Assembly (NCBI GenBank): GCA_050010755.1
Contig: JBEKKK010000002.1
Location: 1 to 64,000 of the forward strand
Origin: Candidatus Bathyarchaeia archaeon
GTDB lineage: Archaea > Thermoproteota > Bathyarchaeia > Bathyarchaeales > Bathycorpusculaceae
Length of the DNA stretch: 64,000 bases
Direction of reading: 5' to 3'
The notes under the pieces were generated by a model. The model did not search any database. It was not told the origin of the DNA and worked only from the letters and a program-made list of their open reading frames with translations. This document shows, in pieces, positions 1 through 55,356 of the stretch. How positions within the stretch are numbered: position 1 is the first letter of the stretch; each line of letters starts with the position of its first letter. A program made the translations under genes and the position numbers.

Positions 1-1350
1 TCCTTACTTGGAAATACCACCTTTCCAGACTCGAACTTATGCTCTTCAAAGTTAACCTGTCTTTTGGCAAGAATCTTTAAAACTTCGTCAAGCCTTTTCT
101 CCGTCTGTTCTCTTCTCGTGGTTTCCGCTCTTCTTTCGTCCTCAGCTTGTGCAAGAGCCTTTTCTAGCTCTTCAATCTTAACATGGTTTTTGCCGTTTCC
201 GTTAATGACTATTGACGGCATAGCTCGAAGGTAAACATCTCTAAGCTGGTCGGTTGAAATGTAAGCACTTTCCGCAATTTTCTTGCCTACGATTTGCTTC
301 CATTGACTCTCACTAGCCACGGCACTTAATCGGTCAATCAGATATTTTCTTAGGTTGTGGAATCTTACTCTTTTTTCGCCAGCTACGAGATGAGCCTTTT
401 CGAACAGTCGTTGAAGACATTGGGTTAAGCTTTGTTCGTCCCAATCGAGAACCTTATCACTGTCTTTTGCTTCTGGGGTTCGCTCTAAAAATGCCTTAAC
501 GATTTGCACAGCGTCACTATCAAGAAATGGGTAAGCTGGAATATGCTCTTTCTGGGTCACGACTTCACCTAAGCTAATTGGTGCTTCGCCTTCGATGTGG
601 ATGCTCCGAAAATCTCCATAAGTGAAGGTTAGAAAATCGCCCGCTCTCAATCCAACACTTTTCCCAACGAGCAAAACATAACGCTCGGTAGGGCTTGCTT
701 GTTCGCTCATTTTGGCTAAGTCTTCCTTCGTAAAAAGATAGTCTTGGGTGCTTCTGTTTGTTTCTTGCAGAGTTTTTGTTTCGCTCCGAGTGAATTCGAG
801 TTTCAATCTGTGTGAAGCCAGAAAGCCTCTTATTGCCGAAGAGCCTAATGTGGCGAAGTTCTCACTCTTTCCCTTTTCAATCAACCACGCTTTGAACGCT
901 AAAACCTTTTTCTGGGTTAGTGCGTCCGTATCCGCTTTCCTAAACTCTAATGTTTCTTTCCCGTTCATGCCACTAAAATTAATCCAATACTTGAAGAGCG
1001 GCGAATAAGCGTTTTTAGAATGAGGCTTTAGACCGTTGAGAAATTCCGTAAGAACCGAGTCGAATTCTTGAGCACATTCGATTCTTTTCATTCTCTCACT
1101 TCCCTTTAATGTCTCTGGGTCTAAATGGCTCAGAGAATCCAAAAAAAGAAATGAAGCTTGAAGACTCGGTTTTTGGCTTTTCCCTCTTCTTTCCGAAAGC
1201 TCCAACAGAAAAACCCTTTTTGTTAGCACCTTAGTTCTTTCGTGTGCCCATGTTTCGAGTTTTTCCGTCTTCATGTCGTTTTTGTCTTACCATACTATAA
1301 TGCGAAACATCTATAAATAGTTTCGTGTAAACAAATCATATTGACTGTTA
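1..1350. mobile_element. Right end of a probable integrated element carrying the integrase
   Basis: Integrase gene pointing away from a junction where a chromosomal repeat copy is truncated (~1348). Confidence 0.55.
3..1091 (-). CDS. Tyrosine recombinase/integrase, partial (runs off left edge; absent from ORF track)
   Basis: Manual translation MKRIECAQEFDSVLTEFLNGLKPHS...VGKSVGLRAGDF...RVRFHNLRKY...IVGKKIAESAY shows catalytic R, HxxR and Y motifs; frame stays open upstream to ATG 1274. Confidence 0.88.
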   Translation of the reverse strand, partial: MKRIECAQEFDSVLTEFLNGLKPHSKNAYSPLFKYWINFSGMNGKETLEFRKADTDALTQKKVLAFKAWLIEKGKSENFATLGSSAIRGFLASHRLKLEFTRSETKTLQETNRSTQDYLFTKEDLAKMSEQASPTERYVLLVGKSVGLRAGDFLTFTYGDFRSIHIEGEAPISLGEVVTQKEHIPAYPFLDSDAVQIVKAFLERTPEAKDSDKVLDWDEQSLTQCLQRLFEKAHLVAGEKRVRFHNLRKYLIDRLSAVASESQWKQIVGKKIAESAYISTDQLRDVYLRAMPSIVINGNGKNHVKIEELEKALAQAEDERRAETTRREQTEKRLDEVLKILAKRQVNFEEHKFESGKVVFPSK

Positions 1351-1397
1351 AATGCAACATTACATCTGATGTAAAGAAAAAAAGGGGAGGGGGGGGC
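1348..1397 (+). repeat. Dispersed polarised repeat copy 1 (5'-truncated)
   Basis: TTAAATGCAACATTACATCTGATGTAAAGAAAAAAAGGGGAGGGGGGGGC; lacks the CAACATGG left part. Confidence 0.92.
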
Positions 1398-2032
1398 GCC
1401 CGCAACGATTTGCACATTGCAATCTCAAACAGATTCAGACCTGGAGCTCAAGGCCGCCGGACGACTCATAAGACGAGCTTTAACGCGCGCGCTAAGCGGA
1501 CACCACCGTCTGGCATGTCTATTTGAAATCTTAATTGGCCATACTGAAAACTTAAGAACAGAAAAAGCCAGACCTATCGCCGACCCCGACAGGTTGGAAC
1601 AACATGAAAAAGAAAGCACGCAACAAACCTTCCGATCTCCCAGCGCCCACCAGCAACGTCGAATACGGCGTCTTCTTCTATCAACGAAACGGATGCAAAG
1701 TGCGTGCAGAACTCTCCAAACGAACAGATTCCAAATCTGCACAATTAACCGCAGAAACAATCACAGCATAATCACACAAGTGCACGTTGTTTCTCACTTT
1801 TCTCTCATGGCTTCATGCATACTCGAGATATGCGGAACAATGCATTTCCAGGAACCTATCATCCAACGCCAGACTGTGCCCCACAAACGGAGATAATTTG
1901 AGAGAACGTGCTAACAAACCGATCCTATGTTTTTTCTTTCCCTTCGTCGAAATGCGACCTCTCCGACCTGAAGTAGCCACGCATTTGAACGAAGACGAAT
2001 AGAGCCAACACGACTTCCTGACGCCAACGCAA

Positions 2033-6387: not shown

Positions 6388-6500
6388 ACCTTTTCCACAT
6401 AACCCCGCCGATTAAACGAATCACCCGGATTAACCGACAACGAGCAGTACAAGCAACATTAATAGCGCGCGTAGAAACACCGATTCAGAAGCACTCACGG

Positions 6501-6570
6501 CAACATGGACACATATGTGTGTCCATTACATCCCAACATTACATCTGATGTAAAGAAAAAAAAGGGAGGG
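6501..6570 (+). repeat. Dispersed repeat copy 2 (subtype B)
   Basis: CAACATGGACACATATGTGTGTCCATTACATCCCAACATTACATCTGATGTAAAGAAAAAAAAGGGAGGG. Confidence 0.92.
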
Positions 6571-6619
6571 CCTGCGGTTCAGTGCCTCTTTTCTTATCCA
6601 AGTTTTCATGGTTAACACG

Positions 6620-8330: not shown

Positions 8331-8412
8331 GCCACCGAAAACGGAACTGCTATTCTTAAAGGTTTGTAAACACGCGAGCTCTCCTCTTGCCCGACTCATT
8401 CCATCGTTCTTT

Positions 8413-8486
8413 CAACATGGAAAACTTACAAAGCAACATTACATTACAACATTACATCAGATGTAAAGAAAAAAAAGGGAGGGGGC
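8413..8486 (+). repeat. Dispersed repeat copy 3 (subtype A)
   Basis: CAACATGGAAAACTTACAAAGCAACATTACATTACAACATTACATCAGATGTAAAGAAAAAAAAGGGAGGGGGC. Confidence 0.95.
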
Positions 8487-8570
8487 AAGCTTCATAGCAG
8501 AAACCGAATAATCAGACGGTAAACTCGAACAAAAGGGGCCATCGGCACGCGCCACCGTGCCGGAACCAGA

Positions 8571-8674
8571 TTTAATTCTTTCTTCGGAACACTGCCCACG
8601 TAACATGGAAATTTACGCTTACACATTACAAAGCAACATTACAATAGACGTAAAGAAAAAAAAAGGGAGGGGGC
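8571..8674 (+). repeat. Dispersed repeat copy 4 (subtype C, with 5' extension)
   Basis: TTAATTCTTTCTTCGGAACACTGCCCACGTAACATGGAAATTTACGCTTACACATTACAAAGCAACATTACAATAGACGTAAAG-A9-GGGAGGGGGC. Confidence 0.93.
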
Positions 8675-8714
8675 AACCACAACGATTCGTGCAGAGAGCG
8701 ATTATTATTCCGCT

Positions 8715-13341: not shown

Positions 13342-14244
13342 ATGGTTAGCTCTGGTGGGAGCTGTATATCTAGAATTGGTCGCGATTCGAGAGGTCTCAG
13401 CAACGTAGTAGTTGTGATGCTTAGCCTTATCATAGTGGTCACCATCGTCGTCAACGTGGTTCTCTTTAGTTATCAGATGAACCAGTCCGATCTGGAAAGG
13501 ATGCGTGAGAACGTTAAGATTATTGGCGTTTCTCAGGTCAACGGTTCTTCTCCCTGGTTTCCAGTTCAGCAAGAATTCACGGTGGACGCGGGCAGCAGGG
13601 TGAATGGCACCTACGTGGACACCCAAAGTCTCGACGGTTCATATGAGAGCTTTTCAGAGAGCCAATTCAACAACAGGCTCGAAATAGACGGCATTTTTGC
13701 AATAGACATCTCAACATATTCCCCCACCAACATCCAAACCGTCGAAATCCTCATCACCTACAATTCCAGCGACACTGGCGAGAACTTGTACATGGAAGCC
13801 TACAATTGGACCTCATCAGCCTTCAGCGACTTCGGCTTCAACTCAACATCAGGCAGCCTGCCCACAACGGGATGGAACAACTACGCCGTCAACCTAACGG
13901 ACCAGTGGAGCAGCTACGTCAGCAGCAACGGAACCGTGCTGGTAAAGATGTATGATCAGGGAACCGGCACAAACCAGACAACCATCGACATCGAGTTCAT
14001 GGCAGTGAGGGTAACGGCGCCGATGGCAAGCTTCACATTCGAAAACGACGGATCCAATACGGTTCACCTCATCGACTTGTGGATAGACAACTCCACATTG
14101 CATCAAAGATACGACATAAGCGTGTACATCAACTCCGGAGACACAGTCTCATACACCACTGCAAACATAAACCTGGCAGAAAAACCCTACACTGTCAAAG
14201 TCGTAACAGAAAGAGGAAACATTGCCATCTACCCAGCTGACTAA
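13342..14244 (+). CDS. Archaeal pilin/archaellin-like protein with class III signal peptide
   Basis: SRG|LSNVVVVMLSLIIVVTIV, N-glycosylation sequons and C-terminal VKVVTERGN; start uncertain. Confidence 0.7.
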   Translation: MVSSGGSCISRIGRDSRGLSNVVVVMLSLIIVVTIVVNVVLFSYQMNQSDLERMRENVKIIGVSQVNGSSPWFPVQQEFTVDAGSRVNGTYVDTQSLDGSYESFSESQFNNRLEIDGIFAIDISTYSPTNIQTVEILITYNSSDTGENLYMEAYNWTSSAFSDFGFNSTSGSLPTTGWNNYAVNLTDQWSSYVSSNGTVLVKMYDQGTGTNQTTIDIEFMAVRVTAPMASFTFENDGSNTVHLIDLWIDNSTLHQRYDISVYINSGDTVSYTTANINLAEKPYTVKVVTERGNIAIYPAD

Positions 14245-14376
14245 CGTTCACAGAGTAACCGTTACGTTTTGGAATCGGTAGGGCAGCTTTGGATACATAA
14301 CCGATTTGGAAGGTTGCAAGCTGTTTAGGAAAAGGAAATAAACGCGTAATGTGAAAGTGTCCGTGGTCTAATCTGG

Positions 14377-14454
14377 GCGGTCGTAGTCTAGTTTGGTCTA
14401 GGACATCAGCCTGCCACGCTGACGACCCGGGTTCAAATCTCGGCGACCGCACCA
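14377..14454 (+). tRNA. tRNA-Gly(GCC)
   Basis: GCGGTCG/CGACCGC acceptor stem, TCAGC-CTGCCAC-GCTGA anticodon arm, GGTTCAAAT T-loop, encoded CCA. Confidence 0.97.
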
Positions 14455-17789: not shown

Positions 17790-17867
17790 CACGTAACATG
17801 GAAATTTACGCTTACACATTACAAAGCAACATTACAACAGACGTAAAGAAAAAAAGGGGAGGGGGGC
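17790..17867 (+). repeat. Dispersed repeat copy 5 (subtype C)
   Basis: Near-identical to copy 4: CACGTAACATGGAAATTTACGCTTACACATTACAAAGCAACATTACAACAGACGTAAAG-A7-GGGGAGGGGGGC. Confidence 0.95.
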
Positions 17868-17954
17868 ACGCTTCATGGTCGAAATTATAGCGTTATACGG
17901 CAAACTCACAAAAGTGGCGACCGACGCGCATGCCTTTTTTGACCCCCATTTTCT

Positions 17955-18042
17955 GAACACTGCACCACGCAACATGGAAACTTACAAAGCAACATTACAT
18001 TGCAACATTACATCTGATGTAAAGAAAAAAAGGGAGGGGGGC
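17955..18042 (+). repeat. Dispersed repeat copy 6 (subtype A)
   Basis: GAACACTGCACCACGCAACATGGAAACTTACAAAGCAACATTACATTGCAACATTACATCTGATGTAAAG-A7-GGGAGGGGGGC. Confidence 0.95.
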
Positions 18043-18211
18043 CAACTGGACGAAGCGAACGCACCTGAAACCGAAACGTTTCACAAGTTCTCACGATGGG
18101 CTGATGTTCATAAACGTACATTTCATCATCACTGTAAGGTAACGCTTAAATCCTGATTGATTCACACTTGCTAGTTCCAAAAAGTTTGCATATGTAAAGG
18201 AGAGAGAAAGA

Positions 18212-36884: not shown

Positions 36885-36960
36885 GCCCCCTCCCCTTTTT
36901 TTCTTTACATCAGATGTAATGTTGCTGTGTAATGTTGCCGTGTAAGTTTTCCATGTTGCG
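36885..36960 (-). repeat. Dispersed repeat copy 7 (subtype A)
   Basis: + strand reads GCCCCCTCCCC-T7-CTTTACATCAGATGTAATGTTGCTGTGTAATGTTGCCGTGTAAGTTTTCCATGTTGCG. Confidence 0.95.
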
Positions 36961-37068
36961 CGTGCGCGTTGCGGAAAACGCTAAAACTTGGTCCTAGCTG
37001 GAGTCTAGGTCGCCCTTTTTCTTCGGGTTTGCTCTGGCATCACTTAGATTGCGATGTTGAACGGTGCT

Positions 37069-37169
37069 CCCCTCCCCTTTTTTTACACACATCAGATGTA
37101 ATGGATCCGTGTAATGGATCCACGTGTGTGTCCATGTTGCGTGGCGCAGTGTTCCGGAAAAAGAATTAA
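37069..37169 (-). repeat. Dispersed repeat copy 8 (subtype B, with 5' extension)
   Basis: + strand reads CCCCTCCCC-T7-ACACACATCAGATGTAATGGATCCGTGTAATGGATCCACGTGTGTGTCCATGTTGCGTGGCGCAGTGTTCCGGAAAAAGAATTAA. Confidence 0.92.
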
Positions 37170-37259
37170 TTTTGGTTCTGGCTTGTGTTGCGCGTGCTGG
37201 TCGTCTCTTTTGTTCGAGTTTGTCGATTAACGTTATGTGGTTTCGACGATGAAGCGTGA

Positions 37260-37332
37260 CCCCCTCCCCTTTTTTTCTTCACATCAGATGTAATGTTGCA
37301 ATGTAATGTTGCAGCGTAAACCGCGATGTTGC
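37260..37332 (-). repeat. Dispersed repeat copy 9 (subtype A variant)
   Basis: + strand reads CCCCCTCCCC-T7-CTTCACATCAGATGTAATGTTGCAATGTAATGTTGCAGCGTAAACCGCGATGTTGC. Confidence 0.93.
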
Positions 37333-44093: not shown

Positions 44094-44168
44094 GCCCCTC
44101 CCTTTTTTTTCTTTACATCAGATGTAATGTTGCAATTTAATGTTGCTTTGTAAGTTTTCCATGTTGCG
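44094..44168 (-). repeat. Dispersed repeat copy 10 (subtype A)
   Basis: + strand reads GCCCCTCCC-T8-CTTTACATCAGATGTAATGTTGCAATTTAATGTTGCTTTGTAAGTTTTCCATGTTGCG. Confidence 0.95.
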
Positions 44169-44377
44169 CGGGGGCGTTCCGAGAAAGGCAGGGACTTGTT
44201 GGGCGCGAGTTGCAATATTGTGTTTTTCATCATCCATCGTGGATGGTTTATTGTCAAACAGCCGGGACGTCGGACGGAACCGTTAAGAAGGGGAAACCGT
44301 TTTGTGGCTGATTTCGGAATTGACATCCGAGTGAGGGTTGTGGGGCGATGAAAAGGTAAAGTTTAAAATGCACCCTA

Positions 44378-53484: not shown

Positions 53485-53543
53485 GCCCCTCCCTTTTTTT
53501 CACACACATCCAATGTAATGGATCCACATATGTGTCTATGTTG
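53485..53543 (-). repeat. Dispersed repeat copy 12 (subtype B, one unit shorter)
   Basis: + strand reads GCCCCTCCC-T7-CACACACATCCAATGTAATGGATCCACATATGTGTCTATGTTG. Confidence 0.88.
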
Positions 53544-53592: not shown

Positions 53593-55356
53593 CTAGATCT
53601 TTTCGTGAGACATGGTTTTCTTTTTGTAGATTATGATTGCTAGTAGTGTTGCTATCATGAACAATGGCAGAATTAGGAATGATGGAAACTCTGGAACTAC
53701 TGCATATGGAACCGTAAGCGGATAGTAGTCTGTGTTGTTTGCGTCAATGACGTATGATGTGTTCCAGACGCCGTCTGTTTCGGTGGCGTTCGGATACTTT
53801 GTCAGGTAGTCGCTCCAGTAGTTACCCACGCTCCCATTATCCCAAACGTTGGTTCCGCCAGAAAAGAAAGGAGGAACTTGGCTGGTGTTGTTTATGAAGT
53901 TGTTGTGGTATATCGTATTATTGTTAGAAGAAGAATCGAGACAGATTCCCCACAAGTTGTTTGCAACGTTGTTGCCAGATAAAGTGTTATTAGAACAAGA
54001 GCCGAGGCTGATGCCATAGTTTTGGTTTCCTGTTATGTTGTTTCCGGAAATATCGTTGCTGTCACAAGAGTCGAGACAAATGCCTTCGAGCTCGTTTGCG
54101 GTTACGTTGTTTCCAGAAATGCTGTTGCTGTTGGAAGAGTCCTCAAGAAAGATGCCCTGGCCACTTCCAGCTGCACTGTTGTCTGAAATAGTGTTATTGT
54201 TACAAGACTCCATGAGAACGATGCCTACGCCGAACCCTGTTACATTAGCTGTTACGACGTTTCCAGAGATAATGTTGTCATTACAAGAATTCTCGAGATT
54301 TATGCCATCGCTGGTGCCTGTAAGGTCAATTAAGGCGTTTCCAGAAATAGTGTTATTATTAGAAGAATCCGTGAGAAGAATAGCTATTTGTCCATCGTAG
54401 TCGTTTGTGACGTTGTTGCCAGACAAAGTGTTACTGGAAGAAAACTCGAGGTCAATGCCCAACTTGTTGTCTGCGATGTTGTTGCCGGTGATTTTTGAGT
54501 CGTTTGTATAAGCGAGTAGAAGTCCTTGGCCGTTGTTTGTTAGGTTCATACCTTGCACGGTCACGTTGACACAGCCAACGAAGCCCAAGAATCCAACCTC
54601 TGGATATGCATCAGGGTTTACTATCATGTTCGACTGGTTCACGAAGTAATAGACGGGTTTACCGTCCACGAGGTTTGAGGCGTCAATGGACTGTGGAAAG
54701 TCGCCAAAAACAGTGCCAAGGACGCCAAAGTTGTATTCGTTTCCCACCATAACGTTGTCAGATAAAGTGTTGCCAGAAGAAGATTCGAGATAAATGCCAT
54801 AATCGAGGTTTGCCGTAACGTTGTTGCCAGACAAAGTGTTCCCAGAAGAAGCGTAGAGCGCAATGCCCTCCCCGTTGTTTGCGATGTTGTTGCCAGACAA
54901 AGAGTTATTAGAAGAATAAGAGCCGAGTTCAATGCCATCCACGCTGTTTGCCGTAACGTTGTTGCCAGACAAAGTGCAGTTAGAAGAAGAGTAGAGCCAA
55001 GTGCCATATGTGAAGTTCTTTATCGTCAGGTTTCTTACTGTCACGTTGCTTATGCCCGTAAGCGCTATTCCGTCGCTGCTGGAAGAGTTGCTTCCAGTCA
55101 CGGTGTAGTCTGCCCCATTCAAAACAATGTTGTCTCTCTCAATCACGATTCCATCGCTAACGGCGGTGATGTTGCCAGTTAACGTGTATGTGACATTATC
55201 TGCAGTGTAAATGGGAGCTGTTGACGGGCTTATGCTTCCGTCTGCATTGATGGTAATGGTTCCACCCTCAGCCTTGACTACTCTTATCAATCCCGTCATT
55301 GACGATACGGAAAGCAAAAGCAGAATTGCAATCAAAGCAAAAACAACTCTGTTCAT
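53593..55356 (-). CDS. NosD/parallel beta-helix surface protein with PEF-CTERM-like sorting tail
   Basis: Repeated GIxLxxSxNNTLSGN units, GNYWSDY, DYYPL and VPEFPS-TM-KKK tail. Confidence 0.9.
   Translation of the reverse strand: MNRVVFALIAILLLLSVSSMTGLIRVVKAEGGTITINADGSISPSTAPIYTADNVTYTLTGNITAVSDGIVIERDNIVLNGADYTVTGSNSSSSDGIALTGISNVTVRNLTIKNFTYGTWLYSSSNCTLSGNNVTANSVDGIELGSYSSNNSLSGNNIANNGEGIALYASSGNTLSGNNVTANLDYGIYLESSSGNTLSDNVMVGNEYNFGVLGTVFGDFPQSIDASNLVDGKPVYYFVNQSNMIVNPDAYPEVGFLGFVGCVNVTVQGMNLTNNGQGLLLAYTNDSKITGNNIADNKLGIDLEFSSSNTLSGNNVTNDYDGQIAILLTDSSNNNTISGNALIDLTGTSDGINLENSCNDNIISGNVVTANVTGFGVGIVLMESCNNNTISDNSAAGSGQGIFLEDSSNSNSISGNNVTANELEGICLDSCDSNDISGNNITGNQNYGISLGSCSNNTLSGNNVANNLWGICLDSSSNNNTIYHNNFINNTSQVPPFFSGGTNVWDNGSVGNYWSDYLTKYPNATETDGVWNTSYVIDANNTDYYPLTVPYAVVPEFPSFLILPLFMIATLLAIIIYKKKTMSHEKI

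What the first reader, a model, noticed from the sequence alone, without database searches (positions are those of the whole stretch)
1..1397. Integrase element appears inserted into the repeat itself
Seen: copy 1 keeps only the last TTACA unit, the palindrome and the tail. Its left part is replaced at ~1348 by DNA leading within 260 bp into a tyrosine recombinase gene, and no tRNA is nearby. Inference: the repeat may serve as attB, giving a mobile element many equivalent non-tRNA landing pads, or the recombinase may be functionally tied to the repeat.
Basis: partly seen in the sequence, partly recalled or inferred. Interest (0 to 1): 0.75.

Follow-up and report, generated by a model that had tools for sequence, protein, structure and literature searches.

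The report
Archaeal integrase elements inserted in repeats
Four small foreign DNA elements in this peat archaeon each sit at the same short sequence inside a dispersed intergenic repeat, so the repeat family appears to offer their integrase dozens of equivalent landing sites rather than the usual tRNA gene.

Summary
Confirmed. The window is the start of contig C2 of a 2.19 Mb Bathyarchaeia genome. Window 1353-1399 is the right half of a ~100-nt intergenic repeat (67 copies counted genome-wide, 3 of them truncated). To its left lies low-GC foreign DNA whose first gene (start 1091, minus strand) has a tyrosine-recombinase fold.

It ends at C8:11885; the C8 tail overlaps the C2 head by 74 nt, and equally the inverted C2 tail.

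The genome holds four integrase paralogs (A, B, C, D; 92%, 71% and 38% identity). Each lies beside a right half-repeat. Four matching left half-repeats lie at C8, C4, C1 and C3.

Elements C (9330 bp) and D (9323 bp) are complete within contigs. All junctions share an 8-13 bp core around CAACATTA. Joining the halves in silico gives full-length family members (65.8-78.5 bits; family range 41.7-77.6).

The repeat occurs only in this genus, including genus-mates where the integrase was not found. None of 31 homologous loci elsewhere carries this repeat or an adjacent tRNA.

Not shown: an empty site, a circular form, and what the repeat itself does. Verdict: a new variant of a known kind, moderately interesting.

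The parts
3..1091 (-). Integrase gene, copy A. The 5' 363 codons are in the window. The last 32 codons and the stop are read on contig C8 (tail of L001).
   Evidence: ORF. The start at 1091 comes from tblastn against copy C. The C-terminus is read from C8. An AF2 model of paralog C has pLDDT 87.3. Its top Foldseek PDB hits are all tyrosine recombinases: XerA 5hxy at 1.4e-8, then IntI, lambda Int, Cre, Tn1549 Int, XerH and SSV1 Int. Pfam Phage_integrase reaches only E=0.0017 and 18.6 bits, below the 27.1 cutoff.
1092..1352 (.). Non-coding right end of the integrated element. It holds TATA-like TTTATAGA on the integrase strand and a subterminal inverted repeat (aaacatctataaat at 1303-1316) matching the element's left end on C8. 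Window 1107-1285 is a ~180-bp stretch absent from copy B.
   Evidence: Sequence. The inverted-repeat alignment between C8 11886-11995 and window 1243-1352 scores 23, against a shuffle mean of 10.3 and maximum of 16.
1353..1362 (+). Shared core TGCAACATTA, present at both junctions of the element (also at C8:11876-11885). This is the presumed strand-exchange region.
   Evidence: The cores of the other elements are TACAACAT (element C), ACAACATTA (element D) and AATGCAACATTAC (C4 left end against the A/B right ends).
1353..1399 (+). Right half of a type-1 dispersed repeat (attR side): the last ACATTACA unit, the palindrome at 1360-1374, and the tail AAAGAAAAAAAGGGGAGGGGGGGG.
   Evidence: family D5. 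It aligns to positions 46-89 of the 91-position family HMM only. Homology between copies A, B and C stops at 1394-1399.
17966..18044 (+). Example of an uninterrupted type-1 repeat, that is, an unoccupied landing pad. Others in the window: 6497-6575, 8410-8488, 8597-8675, 17790-17868 (+); ~36886-36960, 37066-37160, 37260-37330, 44094-44171, 53486-53543 (-).

Best explanation
Window 1-1352 is the integrase-proximal end of a ~9.2-9.3 kb integrated mobile element of a Bathyarchaeia archaeon. The element entered the chromosome by conservative site-specific recombination, catalysed by its own divergent tyrosine recombinase. Exchange took place within an 8-13 bp core (consensus CAACATTA) lying in the last 13-nt unit of a ~100-nt dispersed intergenic repeat.

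Integration split the repeat. Its left half now flanks the far end of the element, and its right half (window 1353-1399) flanks the integrase end. The core is present at both junctions.

The genome carries roughly 55-65 uninterrupted repeats with that core in the same context, so the element family has many equivalent attB sites. Four copies (A, B, C, D) are resident at four different repeats.

Shown: the split repeats, the shared cores, reconstitution of intact repeats in silico, the foreign base composition, and the recombinase fold.

Inferred: that this integrase performed the insertions, where strand exchange occurs, and that the elements can still excise.

The native role of the repeat is not established. 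My best guess is a protein-binding or transcription-boundary DNA element rather than a structured RNA.
For: (1) Missing halves. The left halves end exactly at the core and are followed by element DNA at C8:11885, C1:196164, C3 (L045 2396) and C4 (~1746, minus strand). The right halves begin at the core beside integrases A, B, C and D.

(2) Reconstitution. In-silico joins score 65.8-78.5 bits and cover HMM positions 7-89 of 91. The 54 intact copies range 41.7-77.6 bits (median 70.25). The junctions as they stand cover only positions 8-57 (attL) or 46-89 (attR).

(3) Four of four family paralogs found by tblastn in this genome abut a half-repeat. Two more distant recombinases (23-26% identity, at C1:1349115 and C7:14700) were not examined for this.

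(4) Independent events. The flanks beyond the repeats differ, since homology between A, B and C stops at window 1394-1399. The half-repeats belong to different variants; element D sits in the paralogous type-2 repeat.

(5) Foreign DNA of constant size. Element GC is 40.0-41.2% against 47.7% for the genome. Sizes are C 9330 bp, D 9323 bp and A about 9196 bp.

(6) Recombinase identity. Foldseek top hits are all tyrosine recombinases. R150, K182, H246, R249 and Y278 are invariant in 28 homologs.

(7) The repeat predates the elements. Diverged copies that keep GCAACATTACATCTGA occur in 3 of 4 genus-mates. At E<=1e-10 the integrase was not found in G002 and G003. G001 has one 40% match with two stop codons. 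G004 has two distant 27% matches and a 59-residue fragment.

(8) No tRNA at any junction region of A, B or D, nor at the left ends. The intron-containing tRNA 100 nt beyond element C has no partial duplicate at the far end.
Against: No empty-site allele, excised circle or attP was observed.

The window's own element spans two contigs. The 74-nt C8 tail overlaps both the C2 head (A) and the inverted C2 tail (B), so which left half (C8 or C4) belongs to the window's copy is not settled.

The cores are short (8-13 bp), and the repeat contains two tandem CAACATTA units, which makes exact breakpoints slightly ambiguous.

Terminal inverted repeats are significant only for A. C has an 11-mer at a symmetric offset, but its overall score is within shuffles. 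D is not significant.

Outside this genus the family does not use this repeat: 0 of 31 loci. In 3 of 3 genomes tested, the integrase-proximal 600 nt is low-copy, with 2-3 matches including self.

The integrase clade and the repeat type co-vary (A, B and C with type 1; D with type 2), which also fits the rival in which the halves belong to the elements.
Confidence: 0.82

Rival explanations
1. The half-repeats are the true termini of the mobile elements. The ~65 short repeats would then be internally deleted, non-autonomous derivatives (MITE- or CIME-like) that the integrase mobilises in trans. On this view the repeat is made by the element family rather than targeted by it.
For: The integrase clade and the repeat type co-vary: A, B and C with type 1, and D (38% identity) with type 2. 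Repeats are strictly intergenic, occur in either orientation and often cluster. A chimeric type-1/type-2 unit is joined exactly at CAACATTA at C7:~29167.
Against: The core is duplicated at both junctions, while intact repeats carry it once at that position. An internal-deletion origin does not predict this. Diverged repeats are present in genus-mates G002 and G003, where no integrase of this family was found at E<=1e-10. The half-repeats flanking the elements are as varied as random family members. Element-internal ends share their own motif, TTAATCAGTTGATTAAAAAAG, about 35-55 nt inside the left junction in A, C and D, and this motif is absent from the repeats. The GC drop begins at the core, not at the outer edge of the repeat.
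Confidence: 0.09
2. The integrase acts as a loosely specific, Tn916/Tn1549-like tyrosine transposase. It prefers a short sequence or DNA shape that happens to be enriched in the repeat. The repeat is then an incidental hotspot rather than a recognised attB.
For: Related elements in other genera (L018, L019; 42% and 37% identity in the locus table) are bounded by a simple A/T core, TTT(T)AAAAAAA, with adjacent inverted repeats. Tn1549 Int is among the fold hits. The core is only 8-13 bp.
Against: CAACATTA occurs 175 times in the genome. Even so, all four insertions lie at the same unit of a repeat, next to its distal part, and the three type-1 insertions all use the last of two identical units. 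The sequence identity of the core at both junctions fits homology-dependent exchange.
Confidence: 0.06
3. Artefact: the pattern arises from assembly or binning chimeras, or from segmental duplication of a single insertion, not from independent integrations.
For: The genome is an 8-contig metagenome-type assembly with 4.4% estimated contamination. Contigs break inside the elements, and the head and tail of C2 are identical for 122 nt.
Against: Elements C and D, with both of their junctions, lie inside long contigs (C1 of 1.44 Mb, C3 of 191 kb). A 14,138-bp stretch that includes most of element C is 100% identical in an independent public contig of 630 kb. The elements differ by 8-60% and have unrelated flanks.
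Confidence: 0.02

Closest known systems
Archaeal and bacterial integrative elements with lambda-type (non-suicidal, pNOB8-like) tyrosine integrases that target tRNA genes
   Same: The integrase gene lies next to one junction. A short identical core sits at attL and attR. The target is restored on paper by conservative recombination. The protein has the two-domain recombinase fold.
   Different: The target is a multi-copy intergenic repeat, not a tRNA or other single-copy site. The passages I read of the review PMC8371274 describe tRNA genes as the main archaeal targets, plus single intergenic or protein-coding sites, and mention no dispersed repeat. The integrase is so divergent that Pfam mostly misses it. 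It also carries a long C-terminal helix, residues 302-356.
Mobile elements that target dispersed bacterial repeats: IS elements inserting into REP/BIME sequences, and Neisseria filamentous prophages inserting into dRS3 repeats.
   Same: The logic is the same: a high-copy intergenic repeat offers many neutral, equivalent insertion sites, which allows several co-resident copies.
   Different: As I recall, those systems use DDE or IS110/Piv-type transposases. Here the enzyme has a tyrosine-recombinase fold, the host is an archaeon, and the inserting unit is a 9.3 kb multi-gene element.
Integron integrase IntI with attC sites
   Same: A tyrosine recombinase (2a3v is among the top fold hits) acts on a family of many related, partly palindromic sites.
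   Different: There is no cassette array and no attI platform. The repeats show no significant single-strand folding, with z-scores from -1.5 to +0.4. The inserted unit carries its own integrase.
SSV-type 'suicidal' archaeal integrases
   Same: An archaeal host, a small element, and an SSV1 integrase catalytic domain among the weaker fold hits (E=0.046).
   Different: In the SSV type, attP lies inside the integrase gene, so integration splits the gene. Here the integrase ORFs of C and D are intact within their elements, and the A ORF continues without a stop onto C8.

Membership tests
Tyrosine recombinase superfamily | Two-domain fold (core-binding domain plus catalytic domain) | tested here: met
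   The AF2 model has pLDDT 87.3. There are 32 Foldseek PDB hits at E<=0.001, and all those listed are tyrosine recombinases; the best is XerA 5hxy at 1.4e-8.
Tyrosine recombinase superfamily | Catalytic residues R..K..HxxR..(H/W)..Y conserved | tested here: inconclusive
   R150, K182, H246, R249 and Y278 are invariant in 28 homologs, and the window protein has GLRAGD, HNLRK and ESAY. The position usually held by the second His/Trp appears to be G270-K271. Assigning residues to catalytic roles is my inference; I made no structural superposition of the active site.
Tyrosine recombinase superfamily | Pfam PF00589 match above the gathering score | tested here: not met
   The window protein scores 18.6 bits against a cutoff of 27.1. 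Only 7 of 28 homologs match at E<=0.01, best 3.4e-6. A profile search against PDB sequences hits only the coiled-coil tail.
Site-specific integrative element (attL/attR from attP x attB) | Identical core at both junctions, and flanks that rebuild an uninterrupted target | tested here: met
   Cores of 8-13 bp. Reconstituted repeats score 65.8-78.5 bits, within the family range of 41.7-77.6.
Site-specific integrative element (attL/attR from attP x attB) | Observed empty site and/or excised circular form | not testable with these tools
Relatives gave no synteny. There was no relative in viral contigs.
tRNA-targeting integrase | Junction within, or duplicating part of, a tRNA gene | tested here: not met
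   No tRNA lies near the junction regions of A, B or D or the left ends; the only call there is an ARAGORN prediction with a 513-nt intron near the left flank of C, which I judge spurious. The tRNA 100 nt from element C has no duplicate at the far end. In homologous loci, 0 of 31 have a tRNA next to the integrase; 2 of 31 have tRNAs 7-9 kb away.
SSV-type suicidal integrase | Integrase gene split by integration | tested here: not met
   The ORFs for C (365 aa) and D are intact, and A continues to a stop on C8.
MITE (for the repeat itself) | Terminal inverted repeats, target-site duplication, and presence/absence polymorphism | not tested
   I made no systematic search for TIRs or TSDs at the repeat's outer edges. 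Orientation and intergenic placement are described. Only a local 15-nt palindrome was found, and folding was not significant.
Virus or virus satellite (for the 9.3 kb element) | Capsid or packaging genes, or hits in viral collections | tested here: inconclusive
   One HK97-gp10-like / tail-completion hit in element C (Pfam 1.3e-5, phrog_5 9.5e-13) and one weak repressor-like hit. Of the 10 ORFs of element A, 9 have no Pfam match; one has a sub-threshold match (PF22219, E=0.0096, 16.4 bits against a cutoff of 27). No relative in IMG/VR. The ESM Atlas gave nothing above 0.83.

The most novel reading that the evidence does not exclude
The repeat family and the integrase form a working pair that reshapes the chromosome. 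Beyond inserting elements, the recombinase would exchange DNA between any two repeats, or between resident element copies, producing inversions, deletions and hybrid repeats.

Three observations would be traces of this:
- the type-1/type-2 chimera joined exactly at CAACATTA (C7:~29167);
- the two inverted element copies bounding the 200-kb contig C2;
- the breakdown of synteny beside element C.

A related bold reading is that the constant 9.3 kb size and the lone tail-completion gene mark these elements as archaeal virus satellites.
Probability: 0.12. Interest if true: 0.75.

Novelty: new variant of a known kind. Interest (0 to 1): 0.58.

Why it matters
Archaeal integrative elements are described mostly as tRNA-targeting, with occasional single intergenic or genic sites (passages of PMC8371274).

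Here an uncharacterised and widespread Bathyarchaeia integrase family appears to use a dispersed repeat as a multi-copy attB. The family had 372 hits at E<=0.001. All but one of the 31 genome loci come from records titled Bathyarchaeia or Bathyarchaeota.

Using a repeat as attB would explain how four related elements coexist in a 2.2 Mb genome. It gives a concrete, testable attP/attB pair for an uncultured lineage. It also flags the repeats as recombination hotspots that fragment assemblies of these genomes. A recombinase with dozens of natural genomic sites might also be useful as a tool.

My literature searches for a described equivalent turned up none, but they were keyword searches of an open-access library only.

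Tried and rejected
Empty-site test with reads. Eight public runs hold element C.

Empty-site test by synteny.
- Related-species contigs L053 and L054 (~90% nucleotide identity) match only from the tRNA rightwards.
- A C8 flank gene has only a 48% homolog in one genus-mate.
- The right flank of A hits only scattered paralogs.
- The records behind L053 and L054 are not held for searching.

Structured-RNA reading of the repeat.
- Rfam gave no hit.
- RNAalifold gave essentially no consensus structure (-0.12).
- Single-strand DNA folding z-scores ran from -1.5 to +0.4.
- An apparent covariation between the first TTACA/TTTACG unit and the inverted TGTAA/CGTAAA unit was not consistent across the GGACACAC subfamily, so I dropped it.

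Orientation rule for the repeat. The upstream gene is co-oriented in 44 of 65 copies that have an upstream gene (67 copies in all), and the downstream gene in 34 of 66 copies that have one. This used my own crude ORF-based gene calls and counted copies, not clusters, so it yields no firm rule. The terminator/insulator idea (T-runs on both outer edges) remains a guess.

tRNA as the true att site of element C: rejected.

Repeat association in other genera.
- 0 of 31 loci carry this repeat. Two 18-nt tail matches in L034 belong to a diverged unit next to an integrase fragment inside a ~6 kb duplication.
- In 3 of 3 genomes tested, the integrase-proximal 600 nt is low-copy.
- Only 1 informative pair (L018/L019) allowed boundaries to be read.

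Genus-mates. G001 has a 40% homolog with two stop codons, beside coding DNA and without a repeat.

Element identity. Pfam, PHROGs, IMG/VR and the ESM Atlas gave almost nothing.

Supplementary files of papers were not consulted. Those of PMC10848311 and PMC8371274 might list Bathyarchaeia proviruses or att sites that bear on novelty.

Papers. For PMC10848311 and PMC8371274 I saw passages found by term search. For all other titles I saw only the search listings and the starts of abstracts.
Full report
**Where the window lies**

The window is the first 64 kb of contig C2 of an 8-contig, 2,186,690-bp genome with 47.7% GC. Its estimated completeness is 93.5% and contamination 4.4%. Named homologs and all but one of the related loci come from records titled Bathyarchaeia or Bathyarchaeota. 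The runs that hold the DNA are labelled peat and wetland metagenomes.

**The observation**

Window 1351-1399 carries one ACATTACA unit, the palindrome TTACATCTGATGTAA (1360-1374) and the tail AAAGAAAAAAAGGGGAGGGGGGGG. The palindrome is far above chance: 16 matches on both strands against 0.11 expected.

Full copies have an extra left part. A genome-wide alignment of 57 copies gives a conserved unit of about 100 nt:

tTtcggAACac..cAACATGGAAAcTTACnnnnnACATTACAnnGCAACATTACATCtGAtGTAAAGAAAAAAAgGGGAGGGG.

After filtering I counted 67 copies, 3 of them truncated right halves. All are intergenic by my crude ORF calls. They lie in either orientation, often in clusters of 2-3 at spacings of ~180-190 nt.

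A paralogous 'type-2' repeat (..gcctgttttcaacat.gtttgtcacaaaACAACATTACAACTAACCTCACAAAC..GGGGGG) occurs about 8 times, and usually sits directly upstream of a type-1 unit.

**The gene next to it**

The ORF at 3..1274 (minus strand) runs off the contig. Homologs support a start at 1091, 261 nt from the break. The last 32 codons are on the tail of contig C8, which overlaps the C2 head by 74 nt.

Sequence methods barely recognise the protein. Pfam gives 18.6 bits, below the cutoff. Only 7 of 28 homologs match at E<=0.01. PDB sequences match only the coiled-coil tail.

An AlphaFold model of paralog C (pLDDT 87.3) hits only tyrosine recombinases at the top of a Foldseek PDB search: XerA, IntI, lambda Int, Cre, Tn1549 Int and XerH. 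R150, K182, H246, R249 and Y278 are invariant. A long C-terminal helix (residues 302-356) is an unusual addition.

**The missing half**

BLAST of window 1-1500 against the genome shows three copies of the integrase region:
- Copy B is inverted at the other end of C2, 91.6% identical, with a ~180-bp indel at window 1107-1285.
- Copy C is at C1:204474-205420, 70.9% identical.
- For A, B and C alike, homology stops at the end of the repeat tail.

tblastn adds copy D (38% identity) at C3:24487-25608.

The predicted left halves exist:
- C8:11838-11885 reads ..CAACATGGAAACCTTACAAAGCAACATTACATTGCAACATTA and then element DNA.
- C1:196122-196164 does the same for element C.
- C4:~1800-1746 (minus strand) is a further left end, whose interior runs off the contig.
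- Element D is flanked by the two halves of a type-2 repeat.

The cores shared by the two junctions are TGCAACATTA (C8 left end with the A/B right end), AATGCAACATTAC (C4 left end with the A/B right end), TACAACAT (C) and ACAACATTA (D).

A script joined the halves and scored them against an HMM of 54 intact copies. The joins give 65.8-78.5 bits over positions 7-89 of 91, inside the family range of 41.7-77.6. The junctions as they stand match only half of the model.

**The elements**

Element C is 9330 bp, D is 9323 bp, and A is about 9196 bp (7907 + 1363 - 74). GC is 40-41% against 47.7% for the genome.

They share a few ORFs and a left-end motif, TTAATCAGTTGATTAAAAAAG, about 35-55 nt inside the junction. 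Element A has significant subterminal inverted repeats; C and D do not reach significance.

Gene content is almost entirely unknown. Element C has one HK97-gp10-like / tail-completion hit and one weak repressor-like hit. Of the 10 ORFs of A, 9 have no Pfam match and one has a sub-threshold match. IMG/VR holds no relative.

**Direction of the relationship**

The repeat is confined to this genus: it was found in 3 of 4 genus-mates and in none of the other 25 genera searched. The diverged forms in genus-mates still contain GCAACATTACATCTGA.

The integrase family was not found at E<=1e-10 in G002 and G003. G001 holds only a stop-containing 40% copy. G004 holds two distant 27% matches and a 59-residue fragment. 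This fits resident repeats that were later exploited by incoming elements.

**Other genera**

Among the 31 homologous loci, none carries this repeat and none has a tRNA next to the integrase. In three genomes the integrase-proximal DNA is low-copy.

The one pair that allowed boundaries to be read (L018/L019, ~10.6 kb elements) has inverted repeats next to a simple TTT(T)AAAAAAA core. The family therefore changes targets between lineages, and repeat-targeting is a feature of this genus.

**What remains open**

- No empty site or circle was seen.
- The pairing of the C8 and C4 left ends with A and B is unresolved.
- The function of the repeat is unknown. It is not a known RNA family and does not fold significantly. 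T-runs on both outer edges and the 13-nt direct units suggest a DNA-level role, but that is a guess.
- The main rival, that the repeats are non-autonomous derivatives of the elements, is disfavoured. The core is duplicated at the junctions, the repeat is present in genomes where the integrase was not found, and the GC drop begins at the core. It is not excluded.

**Comparison with known systems**

Mechanistically this looks like ordinary lambda-type integration. The unusual points are the target (a multi-copy dispersed repeat, in an archaeon) and the very divergent integrase.

The strategy of repeat-targeting is known, from my memory, for bacterial IS elements in REP sequences and for Neisseria prophages in dRS3 repeats, which use other enzyme classes.

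The passages I read of the archaeal tyrosine recombinase review (PMC8371274) and of the Bathyarchaeia virus survey (PMC10848311) mention no such case. Three keyword searches found none.

I rate this a new variant of a known kind, with interest 0.58.

Noticed in passing
G000 C1:205626-205767 (L002 15626-15767), minus strand: An intron-containing tRNA gene that default ARAGORN and Rfam missed; ARAGORN with the intron option finds it. It lies ~100 nt beyond the right half-repeat of element C. Contigs of related species (L053, L054) lose homology exactly at its 3' end, so this spot is variable between species.
   Followed up: partly
G000 C7:~29167, minus strand: A hybrid repeat: a type-1 left half joined to a type-2 right half exactly at the CAACATTA core. 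This could be a product of recombination between two kinds of repeat.
   Followed up: no
window 1-122 and C2:200455-200576: Contig C2 (200,576 bp) is bounded by inverted copies of the integrase gene whose outermost 122 nt are identical. The segment could be invertible, and this is why the assembly breaks here.
   Followed up: partly
window 1107-1285: About 180 bp between the integrase start and the element end are present in copy A but absent from copy B.
   Followed up: no
L001 (C8) 14237-14415; C6:24-201; C3:18634-18708: A conserved non-coding block is shared by elements A and D and by the head of contig C6 (83% identity). It has no Rfam match. It could be an element-borne RNA or a replication origin. 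C6 may start inside a further element remnant that lacks an integrase.
   Followed up: partly
L002 12639-13256 (element C): An ORF with an HK97-gp10-like / tail-completion domain (Pfam 1.3e-5, phrog_5 9.5e-13) inside a 9.3 kb element, which is too small for a tailed virus. This hints at a satellite-like lifestyle.
   Followed up: partly
L034 5209-5290 and 11193-11275: Another Bathyarchaeia chromosome carries a diverged version of the repeat (..CAACATTACCACAGACGTTACCAAAAAAGGGAGGGGGG), twice, within a ~6 kb duplication. One copy is ~190 nt from an integrase fragment.
   Followed up: partly
window 53890-55030: Coding repeats with a 69-nt period (families D1, D2, D6 and D7), probably a repeat-rich surface protein. 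Unrelated to the finding.
   Followed up: no
window 37470 onward, plus strand: A cluster of three minus-orientation repeats (36886-37330) lies directly upstream of a gene whose N-terminus (MWAEKYRPKKLSDIV..) looks to me like a replication factor C small subunit. That name is recalled, not tested.
   Followed up: no
table (integrase homologs): For 16 of the 120 listed homologs, the longest contig carrying them is 8.4-11 kb, close to the element size. These could be free circular forms. The contigs could not be fetched.
   Followed up: no
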